DNA of 64,000 nucleotides from an uncultured Fibrobacteraceae bacterium (GCA_964524645.1 CAZGEC010000009.1:7403-71402), one strand, 5' to 3'; counted from the stretch's first letter, positions 1 through 61,180 are shown. Notes: generated from the letters alone by a model not told the origin. Numbers and translations: made by a program.

Positions 1-2731
1 CGGTGAACCCGAAGATCCGCAGGGCCTTGACCATGTTGGGGCTCATGGGCTCGACCAGGTGCTGCTCCAGCTGGCCGCGGGCGACCAGGTCCTCGTACTC
101 GCGGGGCCGGTCCTCCTTCAGCTCCGCCAGGGGAACGCGTCCCGTGAAGATCACCGGATCCATGGGGAACTTGTCCGGCCGGAAGTGCGTGTTGAAGAAG
201 TGCACCGTGAAGATGAAGCCGGTGGCCAGCAATGCCTCGTCGGAGTGGATGATGGTCGCCACGTTGATGAACCAGCCCGGAAAGATGTGCGTGAAGAATT
301 CCGGGAACCAGAGCATCAGGCCCGAGAAGCCGATCATGCCCACGCCCCAGAAAACCGCGAAGTAGTCGAACTTCTCCCAGTAGGTCCAGCGGCCGTAGCG
401 GGGGCGCGGCCCCATGCCGATGAACCACCGCAGCGTCTGTCCGAACTCCTGCAAGTCGCTCCTCTTCGGCAGCATGGTGTCGGGCCCGGCGAGGAACGCC
501 CGCCAGGACAGATCCGCCTTCCGCTTGCGGTAGAAGATATCGATGATGTGCCGGCCGAAGTAGAAGAAGGTGATCAGCGCGCAGATCCGGTGGATGATTC
601 CCGCGCTCTGGAAGCCGCCCATCACATGGGACAGCCACTGTGCCCAGGGCAGGTACGAGAACTTCAGGGTCATGCCGGTCAGCGCCAGACCCAGGAAGCT
701 GATGATGACGAGGACGTGCAGGTAGCGGGGGAGGCGACCGAAGCGCCGGTACTCGAGGCCGGTCGATTCGCGGCGCAGCTTGCGCACGTGCCGCAGGGCC
801 TGGAACGAGCGGGGCAGCCAGAGCAGCGTGTGGATGCCGAAAAAGGCGAAGGTGCCCACCAGCAGGCCCGTCATCAAGAGCCAGGTCCAGTAGATGAAGG
901 GGTACTTGCGCCGGTCGTGATGGGTGGCGTGGGTCAGGTAGCCCGCGAACTGCCGGTGAGAGCCGGTGTGGCACTGGGCGCAGGTGGCCACGATGTTCTC
1001 GCGGGAAAGGGTCGAGTGCGGATCGTCCGGGGGCAGGATGTTGTGCGATCCGTGGCAGTCCTGGCACTTCGCGGTCTCGGTGTAGCCCAGCTTGACGACC
1101 TTGCCGTGGAAGGTCTCGAAGTAGGAGTCGGTGACCTTGGGATGGCAGTGTCCGCAGGTGTTGACGATCTCGCGCATGAAGCCCGCGGCGTCGGTCCGCG
1201 TGATCTCGTGCGAGGTGTGGCAGTCGTTGCACATGGGCAGCTCCACACCGTCCTCGGCGTGGCCGGTGAAGTGGGTGCTGCCCTGGAAGGTCTCGTAGAT
1301 GCCGCTGTGGCACTTGGCGCAGGTGGTGGCGATGTTGGCCCGGTGGATGCTGGAGTTGCGGTCGCTCTGCGGCAGCTCCTGGTGCGAGGTGTGGCAATCG
1401 GTGCAGGTGGCCGATACGACGAGGCCGCTCTCGCTGAGGGCCTTCCCGTGCACGCTGTGGTTGTAGTTCTCCACGACCCGTTGGACCGGGCCCTTGTAGC
1501 GCAGGTCGGCGAGCCCCCCCTCGCCGTGACATTCGGCGCAGAGGCCGGGGATGTTGCTCTTGTAGGTCGGTGACGCGAGATCGGTCTTCTTCTTGATGGT
1601 GTGCGTGCCGTGACAACGCTCGCAGTCCGGTGCGTCCGGGTCACCACTGGCCTGGAGCTGGCCGTGCGTGCTCGTCTGGTAGGTGGCCACCACCCCGGCG
1701 TGGCAGATGGAGCAGTCGACCTTGGGCACCACCGTGGCGCAAGGTCTGGCGTGGGACGGGGTGGCGCCGGTATGGCACTGGACGCAGGCGACCTGGCGAT
1801 GGGCCGAGTCCTGCAACTCGCCGTCGTCGACGTACAGGCTGGTGGTGGTCCCGTCGTGCTCGACTTGCAGGCCCGGTTCGGCGTGGCAGGACAGGCATTC
1901 CTGGTTGCTCATCCCCTCGCCGTAGAACACCCGGCGGGCCTTGTGAGGCTCGTGGCACTCGACGCAGACGGGGACCTTGTTGGGTTCCTTCTCCCAGAGC
2001 TCACCGCGGATCACCTTCTGGTGCACCTGCTCGATGCGCCCGTGGCAGACCTGGCAGGTCTTGGGCACGTTGTCGCGATAGATGGTCGAGCGCGGATCCG
2101 TGTGCGGCAGCACGTTGTGAGCGGTGTGGCAGTCGGTGCAGACGGCCGAGATGGTCAGGCCGCGCTTGAAAAGCCCCTCGCCATGGATGCTGAAGGAGTA
2201 GTGCGTGAGGATGCTGTCCTGGGGTATGTCGTAGAGCCGGGAGACGGGCGTCCCCTCCTTGTGGCAGCGCCCGCACATGAAGGGGATGTTGAACTTGGTC
2301 ACGCGCGAGGCGTCGTTCGTGGGGGGAAGAATGTCGTGGGCGCCGTGGCAGTCCCAGCAGCGCGGGGCCAGTCTCTCGCCGCGGGCCGCGGCCTGTCCAT
2401 GAAGGCTCTGCCGGTAGACCTCGGCCACGTCGTCGTGGCAGAAGGCGCAGTCCACCGGCGCCAGGTCCTCGGCGTGGGGGAAATCGCTGCCCACCAGGTC
2501 CTGGTGGCAGTCGACGCAGGTCAGGCCCGCCTGGCCGTGGATCGAGCTCTCGTACTTCGGCAGGTCCACGAAGAGCGAGACGACGCGGCCGTCCCGGTTC
2601 GTGGTCAGCTCGGTGTCCTCGTGGCAGACGAGACAGTCCCCGGCCTCCTGGCCGAGGACCCGCGATGCGCCGGAGATCAGCAGCAGGACGACCAGGAGGG
2701 CCGGAAGCCGTGAGAGACGGGAGCGGTTCAT
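1..2731 (-). CDS. Multiheme c-type cytochrome fused to a C-terminal cytochrome b-like membrane domain (CbcL-like). Partial: the C-terminus runs past the window start.
   Basis: Hand translation of the minus strand from ATG 2729-2731: MNRSRLSRLPALLVVLLLISGASRVLGQEAGDCLVCHEDTELTTNRDGRV..., a signal peptide followed by many CxxCH motifs (CLVCH, CVDCH, CAFCH, CWDCH; DCSICH at 1700-1717 is in the same frame). The last residues before position 1 (..LEQHLVEPMSPNMVKALRIFGFT) are heme-free, so the gene continues past the edge. Absent from the ORF track because it is incomplete. Same architecture as 16011..17906. Confidence 0.75.
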   Translation of the reverse strand, partial: MNRSRLSRLPALLVVLLLISGASRVLGQEAGDCLVCHEDTELTTNRDGRVVSLFVDLPKYESSIHGQAGLTCVDCHQDLVGSDFPHAEDLAPVDCAFCHDDVAEVYRQSLHGQAAARGERLAPRCWDCHGAHDILPPTNDASRVTKFNIPFMCGRCHKEGTPVSRLYDIPQDSILTHYSFSIHGEGLFKRGLTISAVCTDCHTAHNVLPHTDPRSTIYRDNVPKTCQVCHGRIEQVHQKVIRGELWEKEPNKVPVCVECHEPHKARRVFYGEGMSNQECLSCHAEPGLQVEHDGTTTSLYVDDGELQDSAHRQVACVQCHTGATPSHARPCATVVPKVDCSICHAGVVATYQTSTHGQLQASGDPDAPDCERCHGTHTIKKKTDLASPTYKSNIPGLCAECHGEGGLADLRYKGPVQRVVENYNHSVHGKALSESGLVVSATCTDCHTSHQELPQSDRNSSIHRANIATTCAKCHSGIYETFQGSTHFTGHAEDGVELPMCNDCHTSHEITRTDAAGFMREIVNTCGHCHPKVTDSYFETFHGKVVKLGYTETAKCQDCHGSHNILPPDDPHSTLSRENIVATCAQCHTGSHRQFAGYLTHATHHDRRKYPFIYWTWLLMTGLLVGTFAFFGIHTLLWLPRSFQALRHVRKLRRESTGLEYRRFGRLPRYLHVLVIISFLGLALTGMTLKFSYLPWAQWLSHVMGGFQSAGIIHRICALITFFYFGRHIIDIFYRKRKADLSWRAFLAGPDTMLPKRSDLQEFGQTLRWFIGMGPRPRYGRWTYWEKFDYFAVFWGVGMIGFSGLMLWFPEFFTHIFPGWFINVATIIHSDEALLATGFIFTVHFFNTHFRPDKFPMDPVIFTGRVPLAELKEDRPREYEDLVARGQLEQHLVEPMSPNMVKALRIFGFT

Positions 2732-3065
2732 GCGCGGCGGGCTCCTGATCCCGGTCGATGTCGGGAAGCTGCGAAACGCCTTGGGCCAGTCTCTTTTGCG
2801 ACCCTGCGGCTGTCAAACCTTCTCACGGTCTGGTCCACCCCGGCGGCCCGCCGATCCTCTGCGGCCGGTGGGGCCTGTTAAAAAACCAACCGAAAAGCTA
2901 GGTCATGGTGCGACTGAATTCAAGCTGTTTCCATAATGATTGATTGTGCCCGCGGGGACATGGCCGTCCCGGCCCCTCGCCGACCCTCTCCCATCTGGCT
3001 GCAGTCTTGCTCCCTTCCCGGTCAGCACAGGAAACCGAACGTTCTCGGGCTCAACAACTTGCAGG

Positions 3066-4472: not shown

Positions 4473-4629
4473 AGCCGCCCCCGGCCCCTGCTCGCCGCCG
4501 CGCGCTGGACGCTGCCCGCACCCTGTGCCAAGATGCGCCGATGAGAGGAGCCCTTGACCGGGTCGCGATCCCGCGCCAGGTTTGAGCTTCCGCCCCCGGC
4601 CACCCGCCACCCCGACGAGGAACGTTCGC

Positions 4630-7690: not shown

Positions 7691-7747
7691 AGTGTCTACC
7701 CATCCGTATCGAGAGCAAACCGCAGATAGCACTCCAGGAGGAACTTC

Positions 7748-9247
7748 ATGAGTCTCTTCAGGCGCATTGATGGTGAGACCTGGGCGGAATACGGGCGGCG
7801 GCGCTTCACGATCCTGGCCCGGATCTTCTGGGCCAACGGGATGACCTCGGCTGGATCCATCATCATCGTGGTGACCCTGATCCTCCTGCTGGCGTTCATG
7901 TTCATCCACATCTACGACGTGGTGCTGAGGCGGCCGACTCATCCTTACGTCGGCCTGATCAGCTTCATGGTGCTGCCCGCCCTGATCGCCCTCGGGGCGG
8001 CGCTGGTCGGCGGCGGCCTGCTGCTCCGCCGGTGGCGGCGAAGGCGTGGCGTGCCGGAGCGCGAGCCGCTGCCCCTGGAAGGGGATCGGCTGCTGCGCCG
8101 CGGCGCGGTGATCGGCCTGCTGACGACCGTCTTCCTCGTTCTCTTCGGGACCTTCAGCTACGAGGCGTACCATTACACCGATTCCGTGGGCTTCTGCCTC
8201 AAGATCTGCCACCGGGTGATGCGCCCCGAGGGGGTGGCCTACTCGCGCTCGCCCCACGCCCACGTGGCCTGCGTCGACTGCCACATCGGTCCCGGTGCCT
8301 CCTGGTTCGTCCGCTCCAAGCTGTCGGGGCTGCGCCAGGTGTACGCCGTGCTCACCAACACCTACGATCGTCCCATCCCCGTACCGGTGCAGGACCTGCG
8401 ACCGGCCCGGGAAACCTGCGAGGTCTGTCACTGGCCCGCCAAGTTCCAGGGGGCCAGTCTCCGCATGACCCGGAACTACGAGAGCGACCGCGCGAACACG
8501 CCCACCGTCACGGCCCTGGTGCTGAAGGTCGGCGGCCTGCCGCGACCAGGAGCGCCGGCCACGGGCATCCACTGGCACGTGGACCCGCACAACGAGGTGA
8601 GGTACCTGGCCACCGATCGCGCGCGGCAGGACATCGTGGAGGTCATCCGTGACACTCCCGCCGGCGAGATCCGCTTCGTGCGCGAGGGGGCGGGGGCGGA
8701 CACGACCAAGGGGGAATGGCGCGTCATGGACTGCATCGACTGCCACAACCGCCCCACCCACATCTTCGACAGGCCCGGCGAGGCCGTGGACGCCGCGCTG
8801 GCCGACGGCCTGCTCGACCCGTCGCTGCCCTGGTTGCGCAAGGAAGGTGTGGCCGCTCTGCACGCCGTCACTCCCGGCGGCGCGACGGCTGACAGCGTGC
8901 TGGCCTGGCTCGTGTCCAGCTATCGCCAGGAGCACCCGGACGATCTTCCCGCCGTGCAGGATTCCCTGTCGAGAGCAGCCCAGGTGCTGGCCCGGATCCT
9001 CGAGGACAACGTCTTCCCGCACATGCGGATCACCTGGAACACCTACACCAGCAACATCTGGCACTTCGACGCCGACGGCGACCTGAGCAGCGGCGCCTGC
9101 TTCCGCTGCCACGACGAGGAGCACGTCAGCGCGCAGGGCGAGACCATCAGCCAGGACTGCGATCTCTGCCACACCCTGCTGGCCGATCACGAGGCGGACT
9201 GGACCGGGCTCAAGGGAATCCGGGAGGATTACCTGCGGCATCCCTAG
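7748..9247 (+). CDS. Membrane-anchored multiheme cytochrome c (NapC/NirT- or ImcH-like quinol dehydrogenase candidate)
   Basis: Two N-terminal TM helices (SIIIVVTLILLLAFMFIHIY; LISFMVLPALIALGAALVGGGLLL) followed by CVDCH, CEVCH, CIDCH, CFRCH, CDLCH plus one CxxxCH (CLKICH). AGGAGG RBS upstream. Confidence 0.75.
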   Translation: MSLFRRIDGETWAEYGRRRFTILARIFWANGMTSAGSIIIVVTLILLLAFMFIHIYDVVLRRPTHPYVGLISFMVLPALIALGAALVGGGLLLRRWRRRRGVPEREPLPLEGDRLLRRGAVIGLLTTVFLVLFGTFSYEAYHYTDSVGFCLKICHRVMRPEGVAYSRSPHAHVACVDCHIGPGASWFVRSKLSGLRQVYAVLTNTYDRPIPVPVQDLRPARETCEVCHWPAKFQGASLRMTRNYESDRANTPTVTALVLKVGGLPRPGAPATGIHWHVDPHNEVRYLATDRARQDIVEVIRDTPAGEIRFVREGAGADTTKGEWRVMDCIDCHNRPTHIFDRPGEAVDAALADGLLDPSLPWLRKEGVAALHAVTPGGATADSVLAWLVSSYRQEHPDDLPAVQDSLSRAAQVLARILEDNVFPHMRITWNTYTSNIWHFDADGDLSSGACFRCHDEEHVSAQGETISQDCDLCHTLLADHEADWTGLKGIREDYLRHP

Positions 9248-9294
9248 AATCGCGGCCGGGATGCCGGTCCGGCCGGAAGAAGGCAAGAAGTAAA

Positions 9295-9319
9295 GGGGGA
9301 CGGTCCCGGACCGTCCCCC
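9295..9319. terminator. Bidirectional hairpin between convergent cytochrome genes
   Basis: Inverted repeat gggggacggtc-ccg-gaccgtccccc (11-bp stem) in the 100-nt gap between the 7748..9247 (+) and 9349..11253 (-) genes. Confidence 0.5.
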
Positions 9320-9348
9320 GCGTGCGTGGGTCGAACGCGGTGCCCCGC

Positions 9349-11253
9349 CTACTTGAGCAGCAGCGTGGCCCGGGCCAGCTGCTTCGGCGCCAGCGACAGC
9401 GTGCTCTGCTGCAGGAGCTGTATCGCGTAGAGCGCGTTGTGCACCCCGCGGCTCCCGTCGTACTCCACGAAGAAGTAGTTGTAAGCCGCCTTGCGCTGCG
9501 CGAGGGTCGAGATCGTGATGTCGCCAATCGCGGTCCCGAAGTTGGCCACCAGGGCCGCCCGGTGCGCGGGGCTGTCGCTGGCATCCAGGATGGCGTCATA
9601 CAGGATCGTCAGAAGCCCCTCGACCTCCAGCTGCACGCCCTGGATGACCCCGTTGCCGTCGTAGTCCTCGGTGGCGCCAACCTCCGAGAAGCTCGTCACG
9701 GGTCCGTGGCATTGCGTGCAGGCGTCGAGCCTCGGCTCGAAGCCGTGGCCGGTGTAGACCGGATCGTCCTCCTCGGCCTGCATGTGGCAGGTGACGCAGG
9801 CGTTCTCGATCGTGACGTGGCTGGTGGAGGCGAACGGGAAGCCGGGGGCGACGTCCTCGTAGGCTCCCGTCCCGACCAGCATGTCCGCCTGATCGGAGTG
9901 GTGCGGGCCGAAGTGCTCGTCACCTTCGGTCAGCTGATCCTGGATGTCGGCCGGGCCCCGGCGTCCGTTGTGGCAGGCCATACAGAGTCGGCCCTCCCCA
10001 CCCAGCGACACGACGGTCCCATCCGGCAGGTGCGCGTCCGTGGAGGCGGCGGCGCGCAGCTCGACGTGATTGTCGGTGCCGTGCATGTTGTGACAGATCG
10101 CGCAGGCGAGGGCCGTGACGGAGTCGACGCTGGCCGGGTTCGCGAAGGCAGTGGGATCATTCAGGTAATGGTAGGCGTAGGTGCCGTTGTGGCATTTCTG
10201 GCAGAACGTGAGCCCCAAGGGATCCGTCAGCTCCGTGGAATGGCCATGGGCCGACTCCTGCCACTCCGAGTAGGTCGGATGATGCGGCCCGTTGTGGCAG
10301 ATGCCGCAGAGGGAGGCGTCGATGGTGACCGGCAAGAACGGCATGCCGTTGGATGGGTGCTCGCTGCCGGGACCGTGGCAGTTCTCGCACTGAACACCCC
10401 AGAGAGCCATGATTGGGATGTCGTCGAAGCCGCCGTTGTTGAGGGCCGGGTTGGCGTCGAGACCCTCGCTGCCCACCGTGTGGCAGATCAGGCAGTCGTT
10501 GTTGTTGCCCTGGCCGATGGCCTGCAGGGTCTGCACGGCTTGAGCATGGCTCGTGTTTTCCCAGGTGTCGTAGATGTCCAGGTGGCAGCCGCTGCAGTAG
10601 GCGACTCCCTTGTAGGACGGCTCGTCGGTCGGCGTGTAGGGCAGCACCGTTATCCCGATGCTGGCGGACCGCGTGTCGCCCGCGGCGTTCACCACCACGA
10701 CCTGGACGGTCGCACCGCCGAAGGGCACCGTGTCCGGGGCCTTCCAGACCACCGTGTCGGGTGTCACCTGCGTGAGCGTGCCCGCCGAGGCGGTCCAAGA
10801 ATAGACCAGTCCGCTGCCCACGGAGACGGCCGCGATGGTGCTCTTGTGCGCGATCACCAGCGTGTCCGCGCTGGCCGTCAGCTGCAGGCCGATCTCGACG
10901 CCGATGGCGATGGAGGCCGAGGCCGTCAGGTTGCCGCTCCCGCGGACGGTCACCGTGAGGAGATACACGCCGGGCTGGTCCGGCGCCGTCCAGACGGTCG
11001 AGCTGGCGGAAGCATCCTGGAAGCTGCCAGCGTCGGCGGTCCAGAGATACACCAGGTTCTCGCCGGCGGCGTTCACCGAGATGTTGACCGTTCCGCCCTG
11101 GGCGACGATCTCCTGCGAGGCCGTGATCTCGGAGACGAGAGGCTGGGAGCCGCCCGGCCCGCTGACTTCGTCGTCGTCGTCGTCACATGCCGCGATGGGC
11201 AACACGAGAGCCAGCAGACCCAGCATCAGGAGAGCGAGTTTCCACCTGTGCAT
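9349..11253 (-). CDS. Multiheme (about 9 CxxCH) c-type cytochrome lipoprotein with N-terminal Ig-like/PKD-like repeats (outer-surface cytochrome candidate)
   Basis: Lipoprotein signal MHRWKLALLMLGLLALVLPIAAC followed by an acidic DDDDDE stretch. Two Ig-like repeats (VYLWTADAGSF.. and VYSWTASAGTL..). Motifs CSGCH, CLICH, CENCH, CGICH, CQKCH, CAICH, CMACH, CVTCH, CTQCH. Confidence 0.8.
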   Translation of the reverse strand: MHRWKLALLMLGLLALVLPIAACDDDDDEVSGPGGSQPLVSEITASQEIVAQGGTVNISVNAAGENLVYLWTADAGSFQDASASSTVWTAPDQPGVYLLTVTVRGSGNLTASASIAIGVEIGLQLTASADTLVIAHKSTIAAVSVGSGLVYSWTASAGTLTQVTPDTVVWKAPDTVPFGGATVQVVVVNAAGDTRSASIGITVLPYTPTDEPSYKGVAYCSGCHLDIYDTWENTSHAQAVQTLQAIGQGNNNDCLICHTVGSEGLDANPALNNGGFDDIPIMALWGVQCENCHGPGSEHPSNGMPFLPVTIDASLCGICHNGPHHPTYSEWQESAHGHSTELTDPLGLTFCQKCHNGTYAYHYLNDPTAFANPASVDSVTALACAICHNMHGTDNHVELRAAASTDAHLPDGTVVSLGGEGRLCMACHNGRRGPADIQDQLTEGDEHFGPHHSDQADMLVGTGAYEDVAPGFPFASTSHVTIENACVTCHMQAEEDDPVYTGHGFEPRLDACTQCHGPVTSFSEVGATEDYDGNGVIQGVQLEVEGLLTILYDAILDASDSPAHRAALVANFGTAIGDITISTLAQRKAAYNYFFVEYDGSRGVHNALYAIQLLQQSTLSLAPKQLARATLLLK

Positions 11254-11581
11254 GATACTACCTGCCTGTTCGAGGAAGGAGTCTGGCAGTCGACCCAGGA
11301 AGAGCCCGTTTTCAAATTACCAAGTGCAATACTATGATATTTAGGGGAGCCATGTTCAAGCGAAATCTGCACAGTTAAGAAAACCATAATCAATTGCAAT
11401 TTCTTGTTCTCCAACCAGTTCCCGCAACATTGCCTTGACGGTGGCTTGGAGACCTGCTGTAATTCCCACTAATTGAATATGATCTGTCCCCGCCCCTGAA
11501 ACGACTTTTTCAGACAGCGGTGACACGATAACCTGGATTTGTGCTAGTGTCCAGCGAGATCAGCTGGTTGCGCGGGATGGG
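11254..11581. promoter_or_regulatory. AT-rich divergent promoter region between two cytochrome genes
   Basis: A 328-bp intergenic stretch of markedly low GC in a ~70% GC genome (e.g. ttcaaattaccaagtgcaatactatgatatttagg and cactaattgaatatgatctg), flanked by divergent gene starts. Confidence 0.4.
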
Positions 11582-12766
11582 ATGGTGAGTCCGGGCCAGA
11601 GACCGGAAAGGATGGGTGTCATGATGCGGCTGTCGACCTTCGTGAAATACGGGGCCACTTGCCTGGTGGCAACCCTGCTGCTCGCTGGTTGCGAGAGCGA
11701 TCTCGAGCCCCTGAACCTGCCCAGCGAACTGACGGTGCAGGAGACCTTCGTGGGAGCCGCCAAGTGCAGCGCCTGCCACCCGGGGAAGTACGCCGAGTTC
11801 CTGGAGAGCGGCCACGCCCACATCCTCAACCGCGTCGTGGGCGGGCAGCTGCCCGCCTATCCCTTCCGCGACGAAGTGCCCTTCCCGCTCCTGGCGGCGC
11901 CCGGCGGCAGCTCCGACGATGTGCTCTACGTCGTCGGCGGCTTCGGCTGGAAGGCGAATTTCGTGGGAACGGACGGCTACCTGATCACGGGCGACGCGAC
12001 GCAGTGGGACCTGGAGACGGGGGAGTACGTGGCCTATCATCCCGGCGAGCAGCTGCCCTACGACTGCGGCGCCTGTCACACCACCGGATACTCGCCCACG
12101 GGCCACCAGCTCGGCCTGACGGGGCTGGTGGGGACCTGGACCGAGGACGGAGTCAACTGCGAGGCTTGCCATGGACCGGGCTCCCTGCACGTGCTCAGCC
12201 AGAGCGGGGAGGACATTAACCTGGATCGCAGCAACGCTCTCTGCGCCCGCTGCCACTCGCGGGGCGTGCCGAATCACATCGTCGCTTATCCACCGGACAG
12301 CGAGGGCGACCAGTTCCTCGCGAACTACGGGCAGTTCGACGAGCTGCAGGCCAGTCCGCATCGCAACCTGACCTGTGTGTCCTGCCATGATCCCCATCTT
12401 TCCGCGAAGTTCAGTCCGGAGCAGGCCATCGAGATCTCCTGCACGACCTGCCACGAGGAGATCGAGATCTTCAACACCGGCGGCGGGGCTCACACCTGCG
12501 TGAACTGTCACCTGCCCTTCGCCACCCTGTCGGCGGTGAAGCGTTCGCCGTACCAGGCCGACGTCCGGACCCACATCTTCCGCATCAATCCCTCCGCCGC
12601 TGCCGAGATGTTCTACCAGGAGAACGGAAACTGGTACTCCCATGATTTCCTGACCACCAACTTCACCTGCCTCCGCTGTCACGCTTCCCAGGACCGGCAG
12701 TGGGCGGAGGAACATGCGGACGAGATCCACTCGGGCGAGAAGCGACCGTTCCTCGCGGGGAGGTGA
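11582..12766 (+). CDS. Octaheme c-type cytochrome lipoprotein
   Basis: Lipobox LLLAGCESD. Motifs CSACH, CGACH, CEACH, CARCH, CVSCH, CTTCH, CVNCH, CLRCH. Start may be an internal Met (MMRLSTF..). Confidence 0.8.
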   Translation: MVSPGQRPERMGVMMRLSTFVKYGATCLVATLLLAGCESDLEPLNLPSELTVQETFVGAAKCSACHPGKYAEFLESGHAHILNRVVGGQLPAYPFRDEVPFPLLAAPGGSSDDVLYVVGGFGWKANFVGTDGYLITGDATQWDLETGEYVAYHPGEQLPYDCGACHTTGYSPTGHQLGLTGLVGTWTEDGVNCEACHGPGSLHVLSQSGEDINLDRSNALCARCHSRGVPNHIVAYPPDSEGDQFLANYGQFDELQASPHRNLTCVSCHDPHLSAKFSPEQAIEISCTTCHEEIEIFNTGGGAHTCVNCHLPFATLSAVKRSPYQADVRTHIFRINPSAAAEMFYQENGNWYSHDFLTTNFTCLRCHASQDRQWAEEHADEIHSGEKRPFLAGR

Positions 12767-12769
12767 GCC

Positions 12770-13699
12770 ATGCCCCGGGCTACCACTCCCCAGCGGACCG
12801 CCATGGTCCTCGGCCTGGGCTTGCTGATCGGGTCGGCGCTGAGCGTCTTGGCCGCAGGCTGGACGCCGTACACGTCTCGCCTGACCCCCCCGGCGGGCGC
12901 GAAGCCGGTGGGGACCGAGACGTGCGAGATGTGTCACGACGATGTGGCCGCCTTCTTCGCCGGCACCGCGCACGAGACGGCGATCGTTCCCGGCACCACG
13001 GTGGGGCTCTGCGAGGCCTGCCACGGTCCCGGCAGCCTGCACGTGGATGCCGAGGGTGACGGCCCCATCTTTGGTCCCTCGGTTCTGGGCCAGCTCGTCC
13101 CCGACGAGCGGGCGGCCATGTGCCTGCAGTGCCATCGCGCCCTGGAGGGAGCCTGGTACAACGGTCCTCACGCCGGCACGGATGCCGACTGCGCCGCCTG
13201 CCACACCGACCGTGCCCATTTCGCCCATGGCGCGCAGTCGCCGGGCGCCTTCCGCCGCGGGGCCGACTTCTGCCTGCAGTGCCATCCCGAGAACGCGGCG
13301 GATTTCCGCCTGCAGTACCGGCATCCCGTTCTCACCGGTCAGATGGAGTGCACGGACTGTCACTCTCCCCACGGCACTTCCGATGACCGGGCGGCGTTTG
13401 CCGAAGATGGTCTCGTCTGCCTGCGCTGCCACGCGGAGATGGCGGGTCCGTTCGTCTTCGAGCACGAGCCCACGGCGGACGGGTCCTGCACTGCCTGTCA
13501 CCGGCCCCATGGGTCCCCCAACGACCGGCTGCTCACCCAGGACAGCAACAGTCTCTGCCTGAACTGCCACTACGAGCCGGCCTTTCCCGTGCTTGGAGGC
13601 GTGGATCACGCGGACTTCCTGGCCCAGCGGGCCCGCTGCTACGACTGCCACGCCGAGATCCACGGATCCAACCTGGACCCGAACCTACTCAAGCCCTAG
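12770..13699 (+). CDS. Periplasmic decaheme c-type cytochrome (MtrA/PioA-like)
   Basis: Signal peptide, then 10 CxxCH in 309 aa (CEMCH, CEACH, CLQCH, CAACH, CLQCH, CTDCH, CLRCH, CTACH, CLNCH, CYDCH). RBS gggaggtg upstream. Starts 4 nt after the preceding stop. Confidence 0.8.
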   Translation: MPRATTPQRTAMVLGLGLLIGSALSVLAAGWTPYTSRLTPPAGAKPVGTETCEMCHDDVAAFFAGTAHETAIVPGTTVGLCEACHGPGSLHVDAEGDGPIFGPSVLGQLVPDERAAMCLQCHRALEGAWYNGPHAGTDADCAACHTDRAHFAHGAQSPGAFRRGADFCLQCHPENAADFRLQYRHPVLTGQMECTDCHSPHGTSDDRAAFAEDGLVCLRCHAEMAGPFVFEHEPTADGSCTACHRPHGSPNDRLLTQDSNSLCLNCHYEPAFPVLGGVDHADFLAQRARCYDCHAEIHGSNLDPNLLKP

Positions 13700-13708
13700 G
13701 AGGTCGGC

Positions 13709-15724
13709 ATGGGCAGCTGCAAGGGGATGGGCAAGATGCTGGCAGCGAGGGTCCTCGTGGTCGCGGTGATCCTGCCCGTTGCGGGCGGCGCGCTCGCTGC
13801 CGAGTCGTCCTCCGGTGAGCTTGTTTACGGCACGCCCATCTACCCGTTCTGGTCGGCGCCCGGGGACAGCGTCGGCGTGGCGTCACGCTTGACCTGCGGG
13901 GCCGGACTGCTGGACGACCACGGCCGGGTGGATCGGCTGGCCGAGGACGAGGGGCTGGTGGACAAGGCCTGGGGCCGCCTGCTCTGGGACCGCCGCAACC
14001 TCGTCGGAAAGACCGATCACCTGGTCACCCACGGACAGTTCCGCAGCGACGACGAGATGTCCGGATGGGCCGACGTCCGCTTCAGCCGGACGGGGAAGGC
14101 CGAGTATCGCCTGCGCTACACCCGCCTGCTGGAATACGACGATCGCACCGCCGAGGATCCCTTCCTGCCGGCGGGTGTGGTCGGGGTGATACCGGGCCAC
14201 CCGCTCTTGCGCTGGGATCGCGTGGACTTCGCCTACCGGCGCGAGCTTCGCCCCGGCTGGAATCTGGAGGCCGGCTACGGCTACCTGGCCAAGGACGGCC
14301 GGCGGGCCGGGCTCTCCCGAGGCATTGTGGGGGCCGACCTGCTCTTCGGCCTGCCGGACGCCCTTGAGCGCGCCACCTGGACGCAGCGCGCCTACCTGGC
14401 CGGCGACGTCCTGTCGGGAGGGCTGACCGTGGACTGGCGCCTGAATCTCCAGGCGGACGGCGGCCGCCAGGTCCGGCACAGCACGTCGGCCCTGCCGGCC
14501 ACGCCGGAAGTGATCAGCGAGAGCCGGCGCGCCGCGGAGAACCGGACCTGGAGCCTCAACCTCGGTTCCACCTACACGGCCGGTCCGCGCTGGCTGCTCT
14601 TCGGGAGCTACGATTACCGGCAGCATCGCGCCGAACCGGAGGAGAGCCGCGGTCTGGCCGGCGGCCCGCAGCCGGGCAGCCGCCTCGTGGCGAACGACCT
14701 GGAGGCGGACGCGCGCATCCACACCGGCCTGTTCGGCGTCCTGTATCATCCGCGGCCCTGGTTGCGCGTGCGGCTGGCGGCGCGGCTGCAGAATCTGGAT
14801 CAGGTGAGCCTCGCGACCGCCGGCCGCCTCGACGAGCTGCTGGCCCGCGAGCACGGCAGCCTGGACCGCGAGCGCTTCCGCCAGGCTTACAGCCTGGATC
14901 TGAGCCACAGCGGTTTCCGGAACTCCCGTTACGGGCTGAACTACCGCTACGAGCGGAGCGACGAGCAGACCCACCTGCTGGAACTGGACGAGTACCTGGG
15001 CGGAAACGTCATCCTGCGCGCGCAGCAGAGCGACCGGGATCAGACGGTGCACGATCTGAAGCTCACGGGTCGCCGCCGGCTAGCGCGCGGGTTGTCCCTT
15101 CTGGCGAACCTGGGCTACCGGGCGGAGGACATCGATCAATCCAACGAGATCCGCGGCGGGCTCTACGCCCAGGGGAACCGGAGCTGGGGACGGTGGCGGG
15201 GCGAGATCAAGCTGCGCACGCGTCCGGTGCCGGAGTTCCACTGCGACGCGGGCTACCTCCTGCTGCGCGAGACCTTCGAGCGGGACGATCTGGAGGGCGC
15301 GCGGACGAGCTGGGACGCCGATCGCCTGTTCGCCACGGCGGCCTTCCTGCCCGATCCACGCCTCGCTCTCTACCTGAGCTTCAGCATCGGCTGGGAGGAC
15401 TACGACATCGAGGGAACGCTGCCGGCCGCGGCGAACGATCCGCTCGTCTACAACCCGGTGGAGTACGGGACACGCACCTACCGGCTGGCGCCGGCGGCCG
15501 TGCTGCAGCTGACCAGGAGCCTGTCGCTCGAGGGCGGGTACGAGCGCGTGCGCAACCGGGACTCCGTGGCCAATGATGGGGATCGCTGGCACGCCCGGCT
15601 GAATCAGCGGCTGGCCGAGAGCTGGACGTTGAGCGCCGGCTACCGCCGCTACGACTTCAGCAACCCTTACCGCGACGACTACGCGGCCGATCTGTACACG
15701 CTCTCCGTGACCACGGCGCCCTGA
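13709..15724 (+). CDS. Putative outer-membrane beta-barrel protein (MtrB/PioB-like porin candidate of a porin-cytochrome complex)
   Basis: Signal peptide MGKMLAARVLVVAVILPVAGGALAAE. 671 aa, heme-free, Cys-poor, with alternating hydrophobic/polar strand-like segments rich in Y/R/D/G. Sits immediately downstream of the decaheme gene with an AGGAGG RBS. Lacks the canonical C-terminal aromatic residue, so the assignment is tentative. Confidence 0.45.
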   Translation: MGSCKGMGKMLAARVLVVAVILPVAGGALAAESSSGELVYGTPIYPFWSAPGDSVGVASRLTCGAGLLDDHGRVDRLAEDEGLVDKAWGRLLWDRRNLVGKTDHLVTHGQFRSDDEMSGWADVRFSRTGKAEYRLRYTRLLEYDDRTAEDPFLPAGVVGVIPGHPLLRWDRVDFAYRRELRPGWNLEAGYGYLAKDGRRAGLSRGIVGADLLFGLPDALERATWTQRAYLAGDVLSGGLTVDWRLNLQADGGRQVRHSTSALPATPEVISESRRAAENRTWSLNLGSTYTAGPRWLLFGSYDYRQHRAEPEESRGLAGGPQPGSRLVANDLEADARIHTGLFGVLYHPRPWLRVRLAARLQNLDQVSLATAGRLDELLAREHGSLDRERFRQAYSLDLSHSGFRNSRYGLNYRYERSDEQTHLLELDEYLGGNVILRAQQSDRDQTVHDLKLTGRRRLARGLSLLANLGYRAEDIDQSNEIRGGLYAQGNRSWGRWRGEIKLRTRPVPEFHCDAGYLLLRETFERDDLEGARTSWDADRLFATAAFLPDPRLALYLSFSIGWEDYDIEGTLPAAANDPLVYNPVEYGTRTYRLAPAAVLQLTRSLSLEGGYERVRNRDSVANDGDRWHARLNQRLAESWTLSAGYRRYDFSNPYRDDYAADLYTLSVTTAP

Positions 15725-16010
15725 CCGGCCCGGGCCCGAAGCGGTGCGAGAATGGGGAGCCTGCAAGGTTCCCATACCGAAAGGGATGCAGCGCCCGCTC
15801 TGCCAGGAATTCCTTCAATGGCTTTCATTTAGGTCGAAGTCGGGCTTGCTTCCGTGGCTCGCCTGTTGCGCTTTTTAGCGACTGATTGATGGTCCGCGAG
15901 CCCGTCTTGCCTCCCTGGGGGCACAACAAATGAGACTTGCGGGGCAGCAGCGGCCCACGTCATCGGTGCGGGGACGGGGCGGAGCCGGTGCCCGGGAAGG
16001 GACCAGGAGC

Positions 16011-17906
16011 ATGCACCTCTGCTGGCGGATCCTGCTCTGCATGCTGCTGCTGGGACTCGGGGCCGAACAGGCCGCCGGGGAGAGCTTCACCGGCGAGGAC
16101 TGTGCCGCTTGCCATACGGGCTCCGGCGGTGACCCGCCGGAGGTGACGGCGGCCGACCTGGCGGGCGGTGTGCACGAGGGGCTGGACTGCACCGATTGCC
16201 ACGCCGGGATCGAGGAACTGCCGCACGCGGAGGCGCTGCCCGCCGCCGACTGCGGATCCTGCCATGCGGAGGTGGAGGAGACCTACCGGCAGCACGGGCG
16301 CGGCAAGGTGGGCGTTTCCCCCTTCGTGCCGGGCTGCGCCGATTGCCATGGCACCCACCGGATCCTGGCCATCCTGGACCGGGATTCCCCGGTGCATCCT
16401 CTCAACCTGCCGGGGACCTGCGGCCGCTGCCACGAGGACCAGACGTTCACCGAGCAGCTGAGCATCAAGTTCAAGCACCCCATCCGCGTCTACGAGCAGA
16501 GCGTGCACGGCCGCGCCACGGCCGGCGGCATCCACACGGCGGCTACCTGCAACGACTGCCACTCCACCGGCGGCTCGGCCCACATGATCCTGCCGCCCGG
16601 CGACTCCCGCTCCACCATCAACCACTTCAACATCCCCTACACCTGCGGCCAGTGCCACAACGGCATCGAACAGGACTACTGGGAAGGGATCCATGGCGAG
16701 CTGACTGCGCGCGGCGAGGTGGACTCGCCCACCTGCACGCACTGCCACGGGGAGCACGGCATCCTGCCCACGGCGGATCCACGCTCCCCGGTCAGTCCCT
16801 ACCGCCTGGCCGAAGCGACCTGCGCACCCTGTCACGAATCGGCGGCCCTCAACGAGAAGTACGACCTGCCCACCGGCCGGCTGCAGTCCTTCGTGGATTC
16901 CTACCACGGGCTGAAGAGCAAGGCCGGGGACAAGACCGTGGCCAACTGCGCTTCCTGCCATGGCGCCCACCGCATCCTGCCGGCGGCGGACCCGACCTCG
17001 TCCATCAATCCGCGGAACCTCCCGATCACCTGCGGCGCCTGCCATCCCGGCATCTCGCCCGACATCGCGCGGACGCCCATCCACGCTACCGCCACCGGCC
17101 TGCGCACGGGCTGGCCGCACTTCTTCCGGCTGCTCTACATCTGCCTGATCGTGGTGGTCATCGGCGGCATGGTGCTGCACTGGCTCATCGATCTCTTCCG
17201 GCAGATCCGCAACGTCCTGCAGGAGCGGCCCCAGGTACGTCGCATGGAGGCGGACGAGGTGATCCAGCACACGCTGCTGGCGGTCGCCTTCACGGTTCTG
17301 GTGATCACCGGCTTCTCGCTGCGTTTCCACGACGCCTGGTGGACCAACCTGCTCTTCGGCCGGGAGGGCGGCTACGCGGTCCGCGGCATCATCCACCGGG
17401 TCGCGGGGGTCCTGCTGCTCCTGGGAGGGCTATGGCACCTGCTGTTCCTTTTCACCGAGCGCGGGCGCGGCTTCGTGCGCGACATGCGGCCGCAGGCGGG
17501 GGACGTGCGACAGTTCTTCCAGATGATCCGCTACAACCTGGGGCGCACCGACGAGCAGCCGCAGATGGGCCGCTTCTCCTACGTGGAGAAGGCGGAGTAC
17601 TGGGCCCTGGTCTGGGGCACCGTGGTCATGGGGATCACCGGTCTCTTCCTGTGGTTCGAGAACCTCGCGGTCCGTCTCTTTCCCAAGGGTCTGCTGGACG
17701 TCTTCCTGGTCATCCACTACTACGAGGCCTGGCTCGCCTTCCTGGCGATTCTCATCTGGCACATGTACGCCACGGTCTTCAGCCCGCGCGTCTACCCCAT
17801 GAACCCCTCCTGGCTGACCGGCCGGATGCCGCGCCGCATGTACGAGGAGGAGCATCCGGGAGCCCTGCCGGAAGCGGCGCCGAGCAGGGAGCCGGACCCC
17901 GAATAG
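16011..17906 (+). CDS. CbcL-like protein: N-terminal multiheme (about 11 CxxCH) cytochrome c fused to a C-terminal diheme cytochrome b-like (HydC/FdnI-like) membrane domain
   Basis: Signal peptide MHLCWRILLCMLLLGLGAEQAAG. Motifs CAACH, CTDCH, CGSCH, CADCH, CGRCH, CNDCH, CGQCH, CTHCH, CAPCH, CASCH, CGACH. Then 4-5 TM helices with conserved His (HWLIDLF.., HTLLAVAF.., HRVAGVLLLLGGLWH.., VIHYYEAW..). ATG 16011 is in frame with track ORF 15930..17906. Confidence 0.8.
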   Translation: MHLCWRILLCMLLLGLGAEQAAGESFTGEDCAACHTGSGGDPPEVTAADLAGGVHEGLDCTDCHAGIEELPHAEALPAADCGSCHAEVEETYRQHGRGKVGVSPFVPGCADCHGTHRILAILDRDSPVHPLNLPGTCGRCHEDQTFTEQLSIKFKHPIRVYEQSVHGRATAGGIHTAATCNDCHSTGGSAHMILPPGDSRSTINHFNIPYTCGQCHNGIEQDYWEGIHGELTARGEVDSPTCTHCHGEHGILPTADPRSPVSPYRLAEATCAPCHESAALNEKYDLPTGRLQSFVDSYHGLKSKAGDKTVANCASCHGAHRILPAADPTSSINPRNLPITCGACHPGISPDIARTPIHATATGLRTGWPHFFRLLYICLIVVVIGGMVLHWLIDLFRQIRNVLQERPQVRRMEADEVIQHTLLAVAFTVLVITGFSLRFHDAWWTNLLFGREGGYAVRGIIHRVAGVLLLLGGLWHLLFLFTERGRGFVRDMRPQAGDVRQFFQMIRYNLGRTDEQPQMGRFSYVEKAEYWALVWGTVVMGITGLFLWFENLAVRLFPKGLLDVFLVIHYYEAWLAFLAILIWHMYATVFSPRVYPMNPSWLTGRMPRRMYEEEHPGALPEAAPSREPDPE

Positions 17907-17933
17907 GGCCGGGAGCGCGAGAGCGCCGCCGCC

Positions 17934-17968
17934 GTGCGGCCGCCGGGATCCCGGCGGCCGCACGCTTT
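17934..17968 (+). terminator. Rho-independent terminator after the CbcL-like gene
   Basis: GC hairpin gtgcggccgccggga-tc-ccggcggccgcac followed by gcttttc. Confidence 0.6.
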
Positions 17969-59035: not shown

Positions 59036-59062
59036 CACGACCTTCGCGGGCGAGGTGCGGCA

Positions 59063-61159: not shown

Positions 61160-61180
61160 GCGCGCGAAAGGACGGATCCC

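What the first reader, a model, noticed from the sequence alone, without database searches (positions are those of the whole stretch)
1..17906. Multiheme cytochrome cluster that looks like a complete extracellular-electron-transfer conduit
Within 18 kb there are six multiheme c-type cytochromes covering every cell compartment. Two are CbcL-type cytochrome c/b fusions (inner membrane): the partial gene at <1..2731 and 16011..17906. One is membrane-anchored and NapC/ImcH-like (7748..9247). One is a periplasmic decaheme (12770..13699). Two are lipoproteins (9349..11253 with Ig-like repeats, and 11582..12766). There is also a 671-aa heme-free putative beta-barrel (13709..15724). This matches the inner-membrane quinol oxidase, periplasmic carrier, porin-cytochrome and outer-surface cytochrome logic known from Geobacter (CbcL/ImcH/Pcc) and Shewanella (MtrCAB). 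It has not been established for lineages with T9SS-type sorting-domain secretomes like this one. The partial CbcL-like gene is missing from the supplied ORF track.
Basis: partly seen in the sequence, partly recalled or inferred. Interest (0 to 1): 0.8.

Follow-up and report, generated by a model that had tools for sequence, protein, structure and literature searches.

The report
Mtr-like extracellular electron transfer gene cluster
An uncultured, high-GC bacterium (probably Krumholzibacteriota) has six multiheme cytochrome genes and a porin gene that together look like a wire carrying respiratory electrons from the inner membrane to the cell surface; this is a divergent variant of the Shewanella/Geobacter systems, not a new kind of system.

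Summary
All 62 CxxCH motifs found in any frame of the 64-kb window lie in six genes within 1-17906, which also hold one CxxxCH.

- **Core operon (g7-g8-g9, 3- and 9-nt gaps).** g7 is an 8-heme lipoprotein. g8 is a decaheme of the MtrA/DmsE family (TIGR03508 above cut-off; MtrA 6R2Q_A, E 1e-36). g9 is a heme-free 671-aa protein whose confident model (pLDDT 83) is a 26-strand barrel, and its best PDB match is MtrB.
- **Barrel family.** It is rare: 47 representatives among 1.84 billion proteins. It is linked only transitively to the GSU2204 and MtrB/PioB families. In all 7 independent loci examined it follows a decaheme gene.
- **Surface cytochromes.** They are OcwA/OmhA-like, not MtrC-like. Acidic tracts follow the lipid-modified Cys, as in Bacteroidota surface-export signals.
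- **Inner-membrane parts.** g5 has the ImcH architecture. g10 and g1 are CbcL/MtrH/MtoC-type c/b fusions that keep all four FdnI heme-b histidines.
- **Synteny.** A MAG with 40-79% identical proteins has the whole cluster, with identical heme counts.

The extracellular-electron-transfer reading is supported. The direction of electron flow is unresolved. Comparable clusters are already known in related lineages (Ignavibacteria), so the novelty claim is overstated. Verdict: a new variant of a known kind.

The parts
2..2731 (-). g1: CbcL/MtrH/MtoC-type fusion. A periplasmic domain with 19 CxxCH (an internally duplicated ~8-heme module) is joined to a C-terminal FdnI-like di-heme cytochrome b membrane domain. 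The C-terminal tail runs off the window.
   Evidence: TIGR01583 E 1e-5, residues 662-850; TM segments; 31% identity over 631 aa to g10, E 9e-90, with the four b-heme His aligned.
7748..9247 (+). g5: ImcH-like inner-membrane cytochrome. It has three N-terminal TM helices, a CxxxCH directly after TM3, five CxxCH, and a NapC/NirT/NrfH-like region.
   Evidence: motifs at 150; 175, 224, 329, 451, 471. (PF03264 31.6 bits, above the 24.1 cut-off; NrfH E 6.5e-14). (3 TM); more than 7,400 homologues of ~490-500 aa, and 119 of the top 120 have exactly 5 CxxCH + 1 CxxxCH.
9349..11253 (-). g6: 9-heme lipoprotein with two N-terminal PKD/Ig-like repeats. The lipobox is IAAC followed by DDDDDE. Putative cell-surface cytochrome.
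   Evidence: PKD, Cytochrome_C554; OcwA 6I5B E 3.7e-10; orthologues keep C-DDDD.
11254..11620 (.). AT-rich divergent intergenic region between g6 and g7; probable shared promoter region.
   Evidence: (three of the four promoter-like sites in 1-19000 lie here). Consensus matches only.
11621..12766 (+). g7: 8-heme lipoprotein (LAGC followed by ESDLEP) in the 'mtrC position' immediately upstream of the decaheme gene. OcwA/OmhA-like fold; putative terminal surface cytochrome.
   Evidence: OcwA E 4.2e-13, OmhA E 4e-9; pLDDT 88.2; Foldseek top hits are OcwA, OmhA and MccA, with no MtrC/OmcA. (synteny). (conserved acidic tract).
12770..13699 (+). g8: MtrA/DmsE-family decaheme cytochrome. Putative trans-outer-membrane heme wire.
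   Evidence: TIGR03508 196.3 bits, cut-off 192.2; GSU2203 family 186.6 bits. (MtrA 6R2Q_A E 1.4e-36). Starts 3 nt after the g7 stop.
13709..15724 (+). g9: heme-free outer-membrane beta-barrel, 26 strands in the model. Putative sheath for g8; MtrB-like in fold.
16011..17906 (+). g10: CbcL/MtrH/MtoC-type fusion. An 11-heme periplasmic domain, one linking TM helix, and a four-helix FdnI-like cytochrome b domain.
   Evidence: PF01292 59.4 bits; TIGR01583 E 6e-18; 5 TM. FdnI 1KQF_C E 2.5e-7, with His aligned at FdnI positions 18, 57, 155 and 169.

Best explanation
The region encodes a porin-cytochrome extracellular electron transfer (EET) pathway of the Mtr type in an uncultured bacterium, probably Krumholzibacteriota.

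Proposed mechanism:
- Quinol in the inner membrane is oxidised by g5 (ImcH-like) and/or by the c/b fusions g10 and g1 (CbcL/MtrH/MtoC-like).
- Electrons pass along the long periplasmic heme domains of g10 and g1 (11 and 19 hemes) to the decaheme g8.
- g8 is threaded through the 26-strand barrel g9 and carries the electrons across the outer membrane.
- At the surface they are handed to the lipoprotein cytochromes g7 (8 hemes) and g6 (9 hemes plus PKD domains). These reduce insoluble or extracellular acceptors such as Fe(III)/Mn(IV) oxides, humics or partner cells.

What is shown:
- heme motifs, domain families and the barrel fold;
- g7-g8-g9 operon spacing;
- obligate decaheme-barrel adjacency across the barrel family;
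- conservation of the whole cluster in a diverged relative.

What is inferred:
- physical assembly of g8 inside g9;
- surface exposure of g6 and g7;
- coupling to the quinone pool;
- outward direction of flow, which I put at about 60% against 40% for inward or bidirectional flow.
For: - **Heme motifs.** All 62 CxxCH motifs of the 64-kb window lie in the six genes.
- **g8.** It passes the curated DmsE/MtrA family cut-off and matches solved MtrA at E 1.4e-36.
- **Barrel family links.** 21 of 31 members hit the GSU2204 family, which one review annotates as an MtrB/PioB-family barrel (PMC13188914). 4 of 31 hit TIGR03509 MtrB/PioB.
- **Adjacency.** In L005, L006, L007, L008, L009, L010 and L013 the barrel gene directly follows a ~300-aa paired-CXXCH multiheme gene. 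Ten CxxCH were counted in six of these; L007 is truncated, with six visible.
- **Operon spacing.** g7-g8-g9 are 3 and 9 nt apart, in mtrC-mtrA-mtrB order.
- **g5.** It has the ImcH architecture as defined in PMC6295460.
- **g10 and g1.** They have the CbcL/MtrH/MtoC architecture with His aligned at all four FdnI b-heme ligand positions. mtrH/mtoC genes are known to cluster with mtrAB/mtoAB (PMC6295460).
- **g6 and g7.** They are related to OcwA and OmhA, the cell-surface terminal reductases of Gram-positive iron reducers. They are lipoproteins with conserved acidic tracts after the Cys, like the Bacteroidota export signals SDDDD/SDDFE (PMC5080379).
- **Synteny.** The whole g5-g10 cluster recurs with identical heme counts in MAG GCA_976551135.1, at 40-79% protein identity.
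Against: - There are no experimental data, and the organism is uncultured.
- g9 itself has no significant direct sequence match to MtrB/PioB. NCBIfam shows no TIGR03509 hit for it, and a profile of 31 family members finds nothing in the PDB at E<=10.
- g9 and its two closest relatives lack the C-terminal Phe found in most family members.
- No small soluble periplasmic cytochrome of the STC/PpcA type is in the cluster.
- The Asp at +2 of g6 would mean inner-membrane retention under the E. coli rule.
- Linkage of g5, g10 and g1 to the core is seen only in a sub-lineage where unrelated neighbours (DUF4015, MsbA, GT4) are collinear too. That synteny could be plain genome collinearity. In L005 and L006 the core is present without them.
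- g7 also resembles the octaheme sulfite reductase MccA in fold.
Confidence: 0.75

Rival explanations
1. The hardware is the same but runs inward. It would be an MtoAB/PioAB-type electron-uptake pathway (Fe(II) or mineral oxidation, or uptake from partner cells or electrodes), delivering electrons to the quinone pool through the CbcL/MtoC-like proteins.
For: The g8-g9-g10 arrangement equals mtoA-mtoB-mtoC of the Fe(II) oxidisers Dechloromonas aromatica and Gallionella capsiferriformans. CbcL/MtrH/MtoC homologues occur in both oxidisers and reducers, with no distinguishing feature (PMC6295460). Cyc2-type iron-oxidase genes have been reported in Krumholzibacteria MAGs (PMC7914226, PMC9769843). 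Searches give the gene order.
Against: By 2018, ImcH homologues had been found only in Fe(III) reducers (PMC6295460), and g5 has that architecture. From my own knowledge, not checked here: known MtoAB/PioAB systems usually lack dedicated surface lipoprotein cytochromes. This cluster has two, related to the terminal reductases OcwA and OmhA.
Confidence: 0.2
2. g6 and g7 are periplasm-facing (or inner-membrane-retained) multiheme enzymes that reduce soluble substrates such as sulfite, nitrite, hydroxylamine or tetrathionate. They would be fed by the g5, g10 and g1 quinol dehydrogenases. The g8/g9 pair would serve a separate role or only export.
For: The g7 fold also matches the octaheme sulfite reductase MccA (E 1e-10, TM up to 0.55). 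g6 and g7 have cytochrome c554/NrfA-clan similarity. g6 has Asp at +2, the E. coli inner-membrane retention signal.
Against: g7 is only 381 aa, against about 660 for MccA. It has no CxxCK or Cx15CH active-site-type motif. It is spaced 3 nt from the decaheme gene, and its orthologue occupies that position in L005, L006 and L013. PKD domains and acidic post-Cys tracts fit surface exposure. The barrel family is always paired with a decaheme.
Confidence: 0.04
3. A chance neighbourhood of unrelated respiratory cytochromes with no functional unit.
For: g1 is separated from the rest by three unrelated genes. g6 is on the opposite strand. The inner-membrane genes are not next to the core in L005 and L006.
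Against: 62 of 62 CxxCH motifs are concentrated in these genes. The g7-g8-g9 spacing suggests translational coupling. Decaheme-barrel adjacency is 7 of 7 across 28-42% identical barrels. Heme counts are identical in a relative with 40-79% identical proteins.
Confidence: 0.01

Closest known systems
MtrCAB of Shewanella (structure 6R2Q)
   Same: The gene order is surface lipoprotein cytochrome, then periplasmic decaheme, then barrel. g8 is a bona fide MtrA/DmsE-family decaheme. The g9 model has 26 strands like MtrB, and MtrB is its best structural match.
   Different: The barrel has no direct significant sequence similarity to MtrB (about 11-12% identity in the structural alignment). The 'C' component is an 8-heme OcwA-like protein of 381 aa, not a 10-heme four-domain MtrC. 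The inner-membrane partners are ImcH- and CbcL-like, not CymA. Surface export probably does not use the type II secretion route known for MtrC (that route is my own knowledge).
mtoAB-mtoC and mtrAB-mtrH clusters (Dechloromonas, Gallionella, Rhodoferax; PMC6295460)
   Same: A decaheme, a barrel and a CbcL-type c/b fusion lie in one cluster, as g8-g9-g10 do here.
   Different: Here an ImcH-like gene is also in the cluster; the 2018 survey found no mtrAB/mtoAB next to imcH. There is also a second, 19-heme c/b fusion. The host belongs to a different phylum.
Geobacter sulfurreducens GSU2203 (OmcK) / GSU2204 pair
   Same: These are the closest named families by sequence. g8 scores 186.6 bits on the GSU2203-family model. 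21 of 31 members of the g9 family hit the GSU2204-family model (best E 2.3e-11). Both Geobacter genes are up-regulated with hematite and magnetite (PMC4070692).
   Different: Both scores are far below the curated cut-offs (325 and 350 bits). GSU2204-family proteins carry a CXXCH (and Sec in some), whereas g9 has no heme motif. The Geobacter pair is itself uncharacterised.
Geobacter ImcH (GSU3259) and CbcL (GSU0274)
   Same: The architectures match. g5: 3 TM, CX3CH, then CX2CH motifs, ~500 aa. g10 and g1: N-terminal multiheme c domain and C-terminal HydC/FdnI-type cytochrome b.
   Different: g5 has 6 heme motifs against 7 in ImcH. g10 and g1 have 11 and 19 against 9 in CbcL.
OcwA (Thermincola potens, 6I5B) and OmhA (Carboxydothermus ferrireducens, 6QVM)
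   Same: g7 and g6 share sequence similarity (E 4e-13 and 4e-10) and, for g7, fold similarity with these cell-surface terminal reductases.
   Different: Those are cell-wall or S-layer proteins of monoderm Firmicutes with 9 and 11 hemes. Here the relatives are lipoproteins of a diderm, paired with a porin-decaheme module. TM-scores are modest (0.41-0.46).
Geobacter Pcc (OmaB/OmbB/OmcB) and the Pcc clusters of Ignavibacteria
   Same: The same logic of porin, periplasmic cytochrome and outer lipoprotein cytochrome. They occur in Ignavibacteria, a lineage related to the one inferred here (PMC4245776, PMC7399161).
   Different: The Pcc periplasmic partner is an 8-heme protein and the porin is smaller. 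No similarity of g8 or g9 to these was detected or specifically tested.

Membership tests
MtrA/DmsE decaheme family (TIGR03508) | Score above the curated family cut-off; ten CxxCH in about 300 aa; Sec signal peptide | tested here: met
   g8 scores 196.3 bits against a cut-off of 192.2, covering profile positions 1-257 of 258. It has 10 CxxCH in 309 aa. MtrA 6R2Q_A matches at E 1.4e-36.
MtrB/PioB decaheme-associated outer membrane protein (TIGR03509) | Significant match to the family HMM | tested here: not met
   g9 has no TIGR03509 hit at E<=0.1. Only 4 of 31 members of its family hit the model (best E 2.2e-7). A profile of the family finds no PDB sequence at E<=10.
MtrB/PioB decaheme-associated outer membrane protein (TIGR03509) | 26-strand plug-less barrel encoded next to a decaheme gene | tested here: met
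GSU2204 family (NF041027) | Score above the cut-off of 350 bits; CXXCH-containing | tested here: not met
   g9 scores 16.6 bits (E 0.0026) and has no CxxCH. The relationship is remote only: 21 of 31 family members hit, best E 2.3e-11.
MtrC/OmcA outer-membrane decaheme family | Ten hemes in four domains (two split beta-barrels and two pentaheme domains; PMC7198977) | tested here: not met
   g7 has 8 hemes in 381 aa and g6 has 9 hemes. The g7 model matches OcwA, OmhA and MccA, and no MtrC, OmcA, MtrF or UndA entry appears among the 50 matches listed. The PF22113 hits are also given by g1 and g10, so they are not specific.
CbcL/MtrH/MtoC family (as defined in PMC6295460) | N-terminal multiheme c domain (3-23 CX2CH), C-terminal HydC/FdnI-like cytochrome b with conserved His ligands, 416-1034 aa | tested here: met
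   g10 has 11 CxxCH, PF01292 at 59.4 bits, 5 TM helices and His aligned at FdnI positions 18, 57, 155 and 169. g1 has 19 CxxCH, more than 910 aa, and is a paralogue of g10 (E 9e-90) with the same His.
CbcL/MtrH/MtoC family (as defined in PMC6295460) | Direct sequence similarity to GSU0274, MtrH or MtoC | not testable with these tools
ImcH family (as defined in PMC6295460) | Three N-terminal TM helices, an atypical CX3CH next to TM3, 5-9 CX2CH, ~500 aa, a NapC/NirT-like region around TM3 and the first hemes | tested here: met
   g5 has TM helices at about 35-53, 68-86 and 115-133, CLKICH at residue 150, 5 CxxCH and 499 aa. PF03264 hits residues 123-208. The motif pattern is conserved in 119 of the top 120 homologues.
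ImcH family (as defined in PMC6295460) | Direct sequence similarity to GSU3259 | not testable with these tools
Sources name the homologues only 'NapC/NirT family cytochrome c'.
OcwA/OmhA-type surface multiheme cytochromes | Sequence and fold similarity to 6I5B and 6QVM | tested here: inconclusive
   Sequence E-values: g7 4.2e-13 and 4e-9; g6 3.7e-10. Foldseek ranks OcwA and OmhA first for g7, but TM is only 0.41-0.46 and MccA scores similarly.
Bacteroidota lipoprotein export signal (LES) | Acidic residues at about +2 to +5 after the lipidated Cys (SDDDD, SDDFE, K-(D/E)2; PMC5080379), plus demonstrated surface exposure | tested here: inconclusive
   The sequence feature is present and conserved: g6 has C-DDDDDE and g7 has C-ESDLEP, and orthologues have C-DDDD and C-E(S/D/E)D(L/I/V)(E/A)P. 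Whether this lineage uses the signal, and whether the proteins are actually exposed, cannot be tested here.

The most novel reading that the evidence does not exclude
This may be a distinct Mtr analogue of Krumholzibacteriota and related lineages, with three differences from the Shewanella system.
- A deeply divergent barrel clade sheathes an MtrA-type decaheme.
- The MtrC role has been taken over by non-homologous OcwA-like lipoprotein cytochromes. These would reach the surface by the Bacteroidota-type acidic lipoprotein export signal, not by type II secretion.
- Giant membrane-anchored 11- and 19-heme CbcL-type proteins would span the periplasm and feed the outer-membrane wire directly, making soluble periplasmic shuttles unnecessary.
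Probability: 0.3. Interest if true: 0.65.

Novelty: new variant of a known kind. Interest (0 to 1): 0.45.

Why it matters
Krumholzibacteriota and neighbouring candidate phyla are widespread in sediments. They have been tied to iron cycling only through HMM hits to OmcS and Cyc2 (PMC7914226).

A conserved cluster that runs from the quinone pool to the cell surface gives a concrete, testable genetic basis for mineral respiration or electron uptake in this group.

It also shows that marker-HMM surveys can miss such conduits. The barrel does not hit the MtrB/PioB model that NCBI uses for annotation (TIGR03509), and the outer cytochromes are not MtrC-like.

The swap of an OcwA-type cytochrome into the mtrC position illustrates modular evolution of EET systems. 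The acidic lipoprotein signal suggests a different route for placing cytochromes on the surface.

Tried and rejected
- **Direct sequence links of g9 to solved structures.** phmmer and a 31-sequence profile against the PDB found nothing. Only fold comparison and transitive family hits link g9 to MtrB.
- **Locus search with the 31-sequence alignment.** It was repeated with 12 closer sequences.
- **Exact-sequence look-ups of P0001 and P0178.** Neither is on record, so the 137-kb NCBI source contig could not be retrieved, and the gene beyond g1 and the full genome were not examined.
- **MtrC/OmcA membership for g6 and g7.** Rejected. The PF22113 hits are generic for multiheme stretches.
- **DmsEFAB-type extracellular DMSO reductase.** Rejected because no molybdopterin or DmsAB gene lies in or near the cluster.
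- **TonB-dependent receptor reading of g9.** Rejected. There are no Plug or TonB_dep_Rec Pfam hits, only about 40-60 residues precede the barrel, and the model has 26 strands where these receptors have 22 (the receptor strand number is my own knowledge).
- **Promoter and terminator scans.** They give only weak consensus matches and were not used as evidence, apart from noting the AT-rich divergent region.
- **Taxonomy.** No rRNA or tRNA is in the window. The Krumholzibacteriota assignment rests only on the names of the nearest homologues and loci.


Full report
**1. What is in the sequence**

The window is 68% GC, so raw ORF lists are full of spurious frames. I called genes by third-codon-position GC and translated them.

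| Gene | Coordinates | Strand | Length | Heme motifs | Other features |
|---|---|---|---|---|---|
| g1 | 2..2731 | − | 910 aa visible | 19 CxxCH | start at 2731; C-terminal tail off the window |
| g5 | 7748..9247 | + | 499 aa | 5 CxxCH + 1 CxxxCH | three N-terminal TM helices |
| g6 | 9349..11253 | − | 634 aa | 9 CxxCH | lipoprotein, two PKD/Ig-like repeats |
| g7 | 11621..12766 (reader: 11582) | + | 381 aa | 8 CxxCH | lipoprotein |
| g8 | 12770..13699 | + | 309 aa | 10 CxxCH | signal peptide |
| g9 | 13709..15724 | + | 671 aa | none | signal peptide |
| g10 | 16011..17906 | + | 631 aa | 11 CxxCH | cytochrome b domain |

- A six-frame scan of all 64 kb finds 62 CxxCH motifs. All 62 are in these six genes, so the concentration is far from chance.
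- Between g1 and g5 lie three unrelated genes: DUF4015/LysM, MsbA and a GT4 glycosyltransferase.
- The rest of the window is ordinary chromosome: GAPDH, PEPCK, citrate synthase and peptidases with FlgD_ig/Por-type C-terminal domains.

**2. The outer-membrane core, g7-g8-g9**

- **Spacing.** g8 starts 3 nt after g7, and g9 starts 9 nt after g8.
- **g8.** It passes the curated cut-off of the DmsE/MtrA decaheme family (TIGR03508, 196.3 against 192.2 bits). It matches MtrA of the solved Mtr complex at E 1.4e-36 (6R2Q_A).
- **g9, by sequence.** It has no Pfam or NCBIfam assignment and no sequence match in the PDB.
- **Family size.** A word-indexed search found only three close relatives. An exhaustive phmmer scan of 1.84 billion representative proteins found 47 at E<=0.001. 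The family is rare.
- **g9, by structure.** With a 31-sequence alignment (A1), AlphaFold2 gave a confident all-beta model (pLDDT 83.2, pTM 0.78). I count 26 strands, merging two kinked ones. MtrB is a 26-strand barrel that sheathes MtrA (PMC7198977).
- **Remote sequence links.** A profile of the family still finds no PDB sequence. Scanning the 31 members one by one, 21 hit the GSU2204 family (best E 2.3e-11) and 4 hit TIGR03509 MtrB/PioB (best E 2.2e-7). [quoted passage not shown] Its neighbour GSU2203 (OmcK) is the second-best family for g8 (186.6 bits).
- **Conclusion.** g9 works like MtrB and is a remote relative. It fails the TIGR03509 membership test.

**3. Genomic association**

- The barrel gene directly follows a ~300-aa paired-CXXCH multiheme gene in every independent locus where the upstream DNA is available. 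These are L005 and L006 (MAGs labelled 'uncultured Fibrobacteraceae'), L007 (a Ca. Krumholzibacteriia MAG), L008, L009, L010 and L013. Barrel identity to g9 ranges from 28% to 42% where it was measured.
- Ten CxxCH were counted in six of these upstream genes. L007 is truncated and shows six.
- The g7 orthologue sits upstream of the decaheme in L005, L006 and L013. In L005 it is a 16-heme, 738-aa form. The g6 orthologue is divergently placed in L006 and L013.

**4. The outer cytochromes**

- **Lipoprotein signals.** g6 has IAAC followed by DDDDDE. g7 has LAGC followed by ESDLEP.
- **Sequence relatives.** Both match OcwA, the outer cell-wall cytochrome of Thermincola (6I5B; E 3.7e-10 and 4.2e-13). 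g7 also matches the S-layer undecaheme OmhA (6QVM; E 4e-9).
- **g7 family.** It is widespread (1,486 hits), about 360-390 aa and mostly 8 hemes. It is found in Krumholzibacteriia, Zixibacteria, Armatimonadota, Nitrospirota, Kosmotoga and Caldilineaceae, and is sometimes fused to collagen-like repeats.
- **g7 fold.** The model (pLDDT 88.2) matches OcwA, OmhA and the octaheme sulfite reductase MccA. No MtrC, OmcA, MtrF or UndA entry appears among the 50 matches listed. The MtrC position is therefore filled by a non-homologous cytochrome.
- **Acidic tract.** It is conserved after the lipidated Cys: C-DDDD in g6 orthologues and C-E(S/D/E)D(L/I/V)(E/A)P in g7 orthologues. It resembles the Bacteroidota lipoprotein export signals SDDDD, SDDFE and K-(D/E)2, which send lipoproteins to the cell surface (PMC5080379).
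- **Limits of this inference.** Krumholzibacteriota are placed in the FCB (Fibrobacterota-Chlorobiota-Bacteroidota) superphylum by PMC9769843. Use of this signal outside Bacteroidota is my inference. Under the E. coli rule, the +2 Asp of g6 would instead predict inner-membrane retention.

**5. The inner-membrane components**

- **g10.** It has a signal peptide, 11 CxxCH, a linking TM helix and a four-helix cytochrome b domain. Scores: PF01292 59.4 bits; TIGR01583 E 6e-18; E. coli FdnI 1KQF_C E 2.5e-7. Histidines align at FdnI positions 18, 57, 155 and 169. That these four positions are the heme-b ligands is from my own knowledge of the FdnI structure.
- **g1.** It is a paralogue of g10 (31% identity over 631 aa, E 9e-90) with an extra duplicated heme module and the same four His.
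- **Family fit.** Both fit the CbcL/MtrH/MtoC family as defined by Zhong and Shi: 3-23 CX2CH, 416-1034 aa, conserved His. Such genes are known to cluster with mtrAB/mtoAB (PMC6295460).
- **g5.** It fits that paper's ImcH definition: three TM helices, an atypical CX3CH next to TM3, 5-9 CX2CH and about 500 aa. 119 of its top 120 homologues share exactly 5 CxxCH + 1 CxxxCH.
- **Not tested.** I could not compare any of these directly with GSU0274 or GSU3259.

**6. Conservation of the whole cluster**

- In MAG GCA_976551135.1 (L013), g2 to g11 are fully collinear. Heme counts are identical (5+1, 9, 8, 10, 0, 11). Protein identities are 40% for the barrel, 51-57% for most proteins and 79% for g10.
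- Closer relatives (77-93% identity) show the same pieces on short contigs: L003, L004, L011 and L012.
- Caveat: the unrelated neighbours are collinear too. This synteny does not by itself prove that g5, g10 and g1 act with the core. L005 and L006 carry the core without them.

**7. Interpretation**

- **Best reading (confidence 0.75).** This is a porin-cytochrome EET pathway. Quinol oxidation is by g5, g10 and g1. Periplasmic transfer is possibly along the long heme domains of g10 and g1, since no small shuttle is encoded here. Outer-membrane crossing is by g8 inside g9. Delivery is to the surface cytochromes g7 and g6.
- **Direction.** It is unresolved. The ImcH-like gene and the two surface cytochromes favour reduction of extracellular acceptors (about 60%). 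The mtoAB-mtoC-like order and reports of Cyc2 in this phylum keep electron uptake alive.
- **Less likely.** A periplasmic soluble-substrate reductase reading is unlikely, and a chance neighbourhood is very unlikely.

**8. Novelty**

- Already published:
  - porin-cytochrome clusters in Ignavibacteria (PMC4245776, PMC7399161);
  - CbcL and ImcH homologues in Bacteroidetes, Ignavibacteriae, Gemmatimonadetes and Calditrichaeota (PMC6295460);
  - mtrCAB in a Gemmatimonadetes genome (PMC8805035);
  - mtrAB in Zixibacteria (PMC9769843);
  - OmcS and Cyc2 hits in Krumholzibacteria (PMC7914226).

- New here:
  - a rare, deeply divergent barrel clade that is not recognised by the MtrB/PioB model (TIGR03509);
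  - OcwA-like lipoprotein cytochromes in the mtrC position, with LES-like signals;
  - ImcH-like and two CbcL-like genes in the same cluster as the mtrAB-like pair, an adjacency not seen in the 2018 survey.
- Verdict: a new variant of a known kind. Interest is moderate.

Noticed in passing
window 58881-59016 (+) and ORF 58928-61159 (+): A cobalamin riboswitch (RF00174, 76.5 bits, E 4.5e-17) lies directly upstream of, and overlaps the called start of, a TonB-dependent receptor gene (Plug + TonB_dep_Rec). It is probably a B12-regulated BtuB-like transporter. The true start codon is probably downstream of 59016.
   Followed up: partly
window 18075-21152 (+): g11 is a 1025-aa protein with no Pfam hit and a single central TM helix (about 381-399). 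It lies directly downstream of the CbcL-like gene. A homologue (44% identity over 292 aa) occupies the same position in L013. It may be an accessory factor of the cluster or simply a syntenic neighbour.
   Followed up: partly
window 15700-15724 (C-terminus of g9); alignment A1: g9 and its two closest relatives end in ...TTAP or ...TTAR. 26 of the 28 other aligned family members end in Phe, the usual terminal aromatic of the outer-membrane beta-signal. The change is seen on three independent contigs, so it is not a sequencing error.
   Followed up: no
window 16011-17906 versus L013 16090-18015: The CbcL-like g10 is 79% identical to its L013 orthologue, whereas neighbouring cluster proteins are only 40-57% identical. 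This suggests unusually strong constraint or a more recent transfer of this gene.
   Followed up: no
window 2-2731 (-): The heme spacing in g1 shows an internal duplication of an ~8-heme, ~245-aa module: inter-motif spacings are 23, 30, 28, 45, 28, 30, 23 and then 24, 30, 28, 45, 28, 30, 25. The same module occurs once in g10.
   Followed up: partly
L005 5217-7433: In this related MAG the g7 orthologue is a 738-aa protein with 16 CxxCH and the same LAGC-ESDLAP lipoprotein start. It looks like a tandem doubling or fusion of the surface cytochrome.
   Followed up: no
window 9295-9319: A strong 11-bp GC-rich hairpin with a T-rich tail on the minus strand lies between the convergent genes g5 and g6. 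It is a likely terminator for g6 and possibly acts in both directions.
   Followed up: no
window 32429-33625 and 33454-34626 (+): Two tandem glyceraldehyde-3-phosphate dehydrogenase paralogues. The open reading frames as listed overlap, so the true start of the second is probably internal.
   Followed up: no
window 39126-41192, 41314-45039, 61160-62605 (+): An M1 peptidase, a 1241-aa S8 subtilase and a third ORF all end in a FlgD_ig-type domain. The first also has a sub-threshold Por_Secre_tail hit. This fits a T9SS-like C-terminal sorting signal in this organism. None of the cytochromes carries it.
   Followed up: partly
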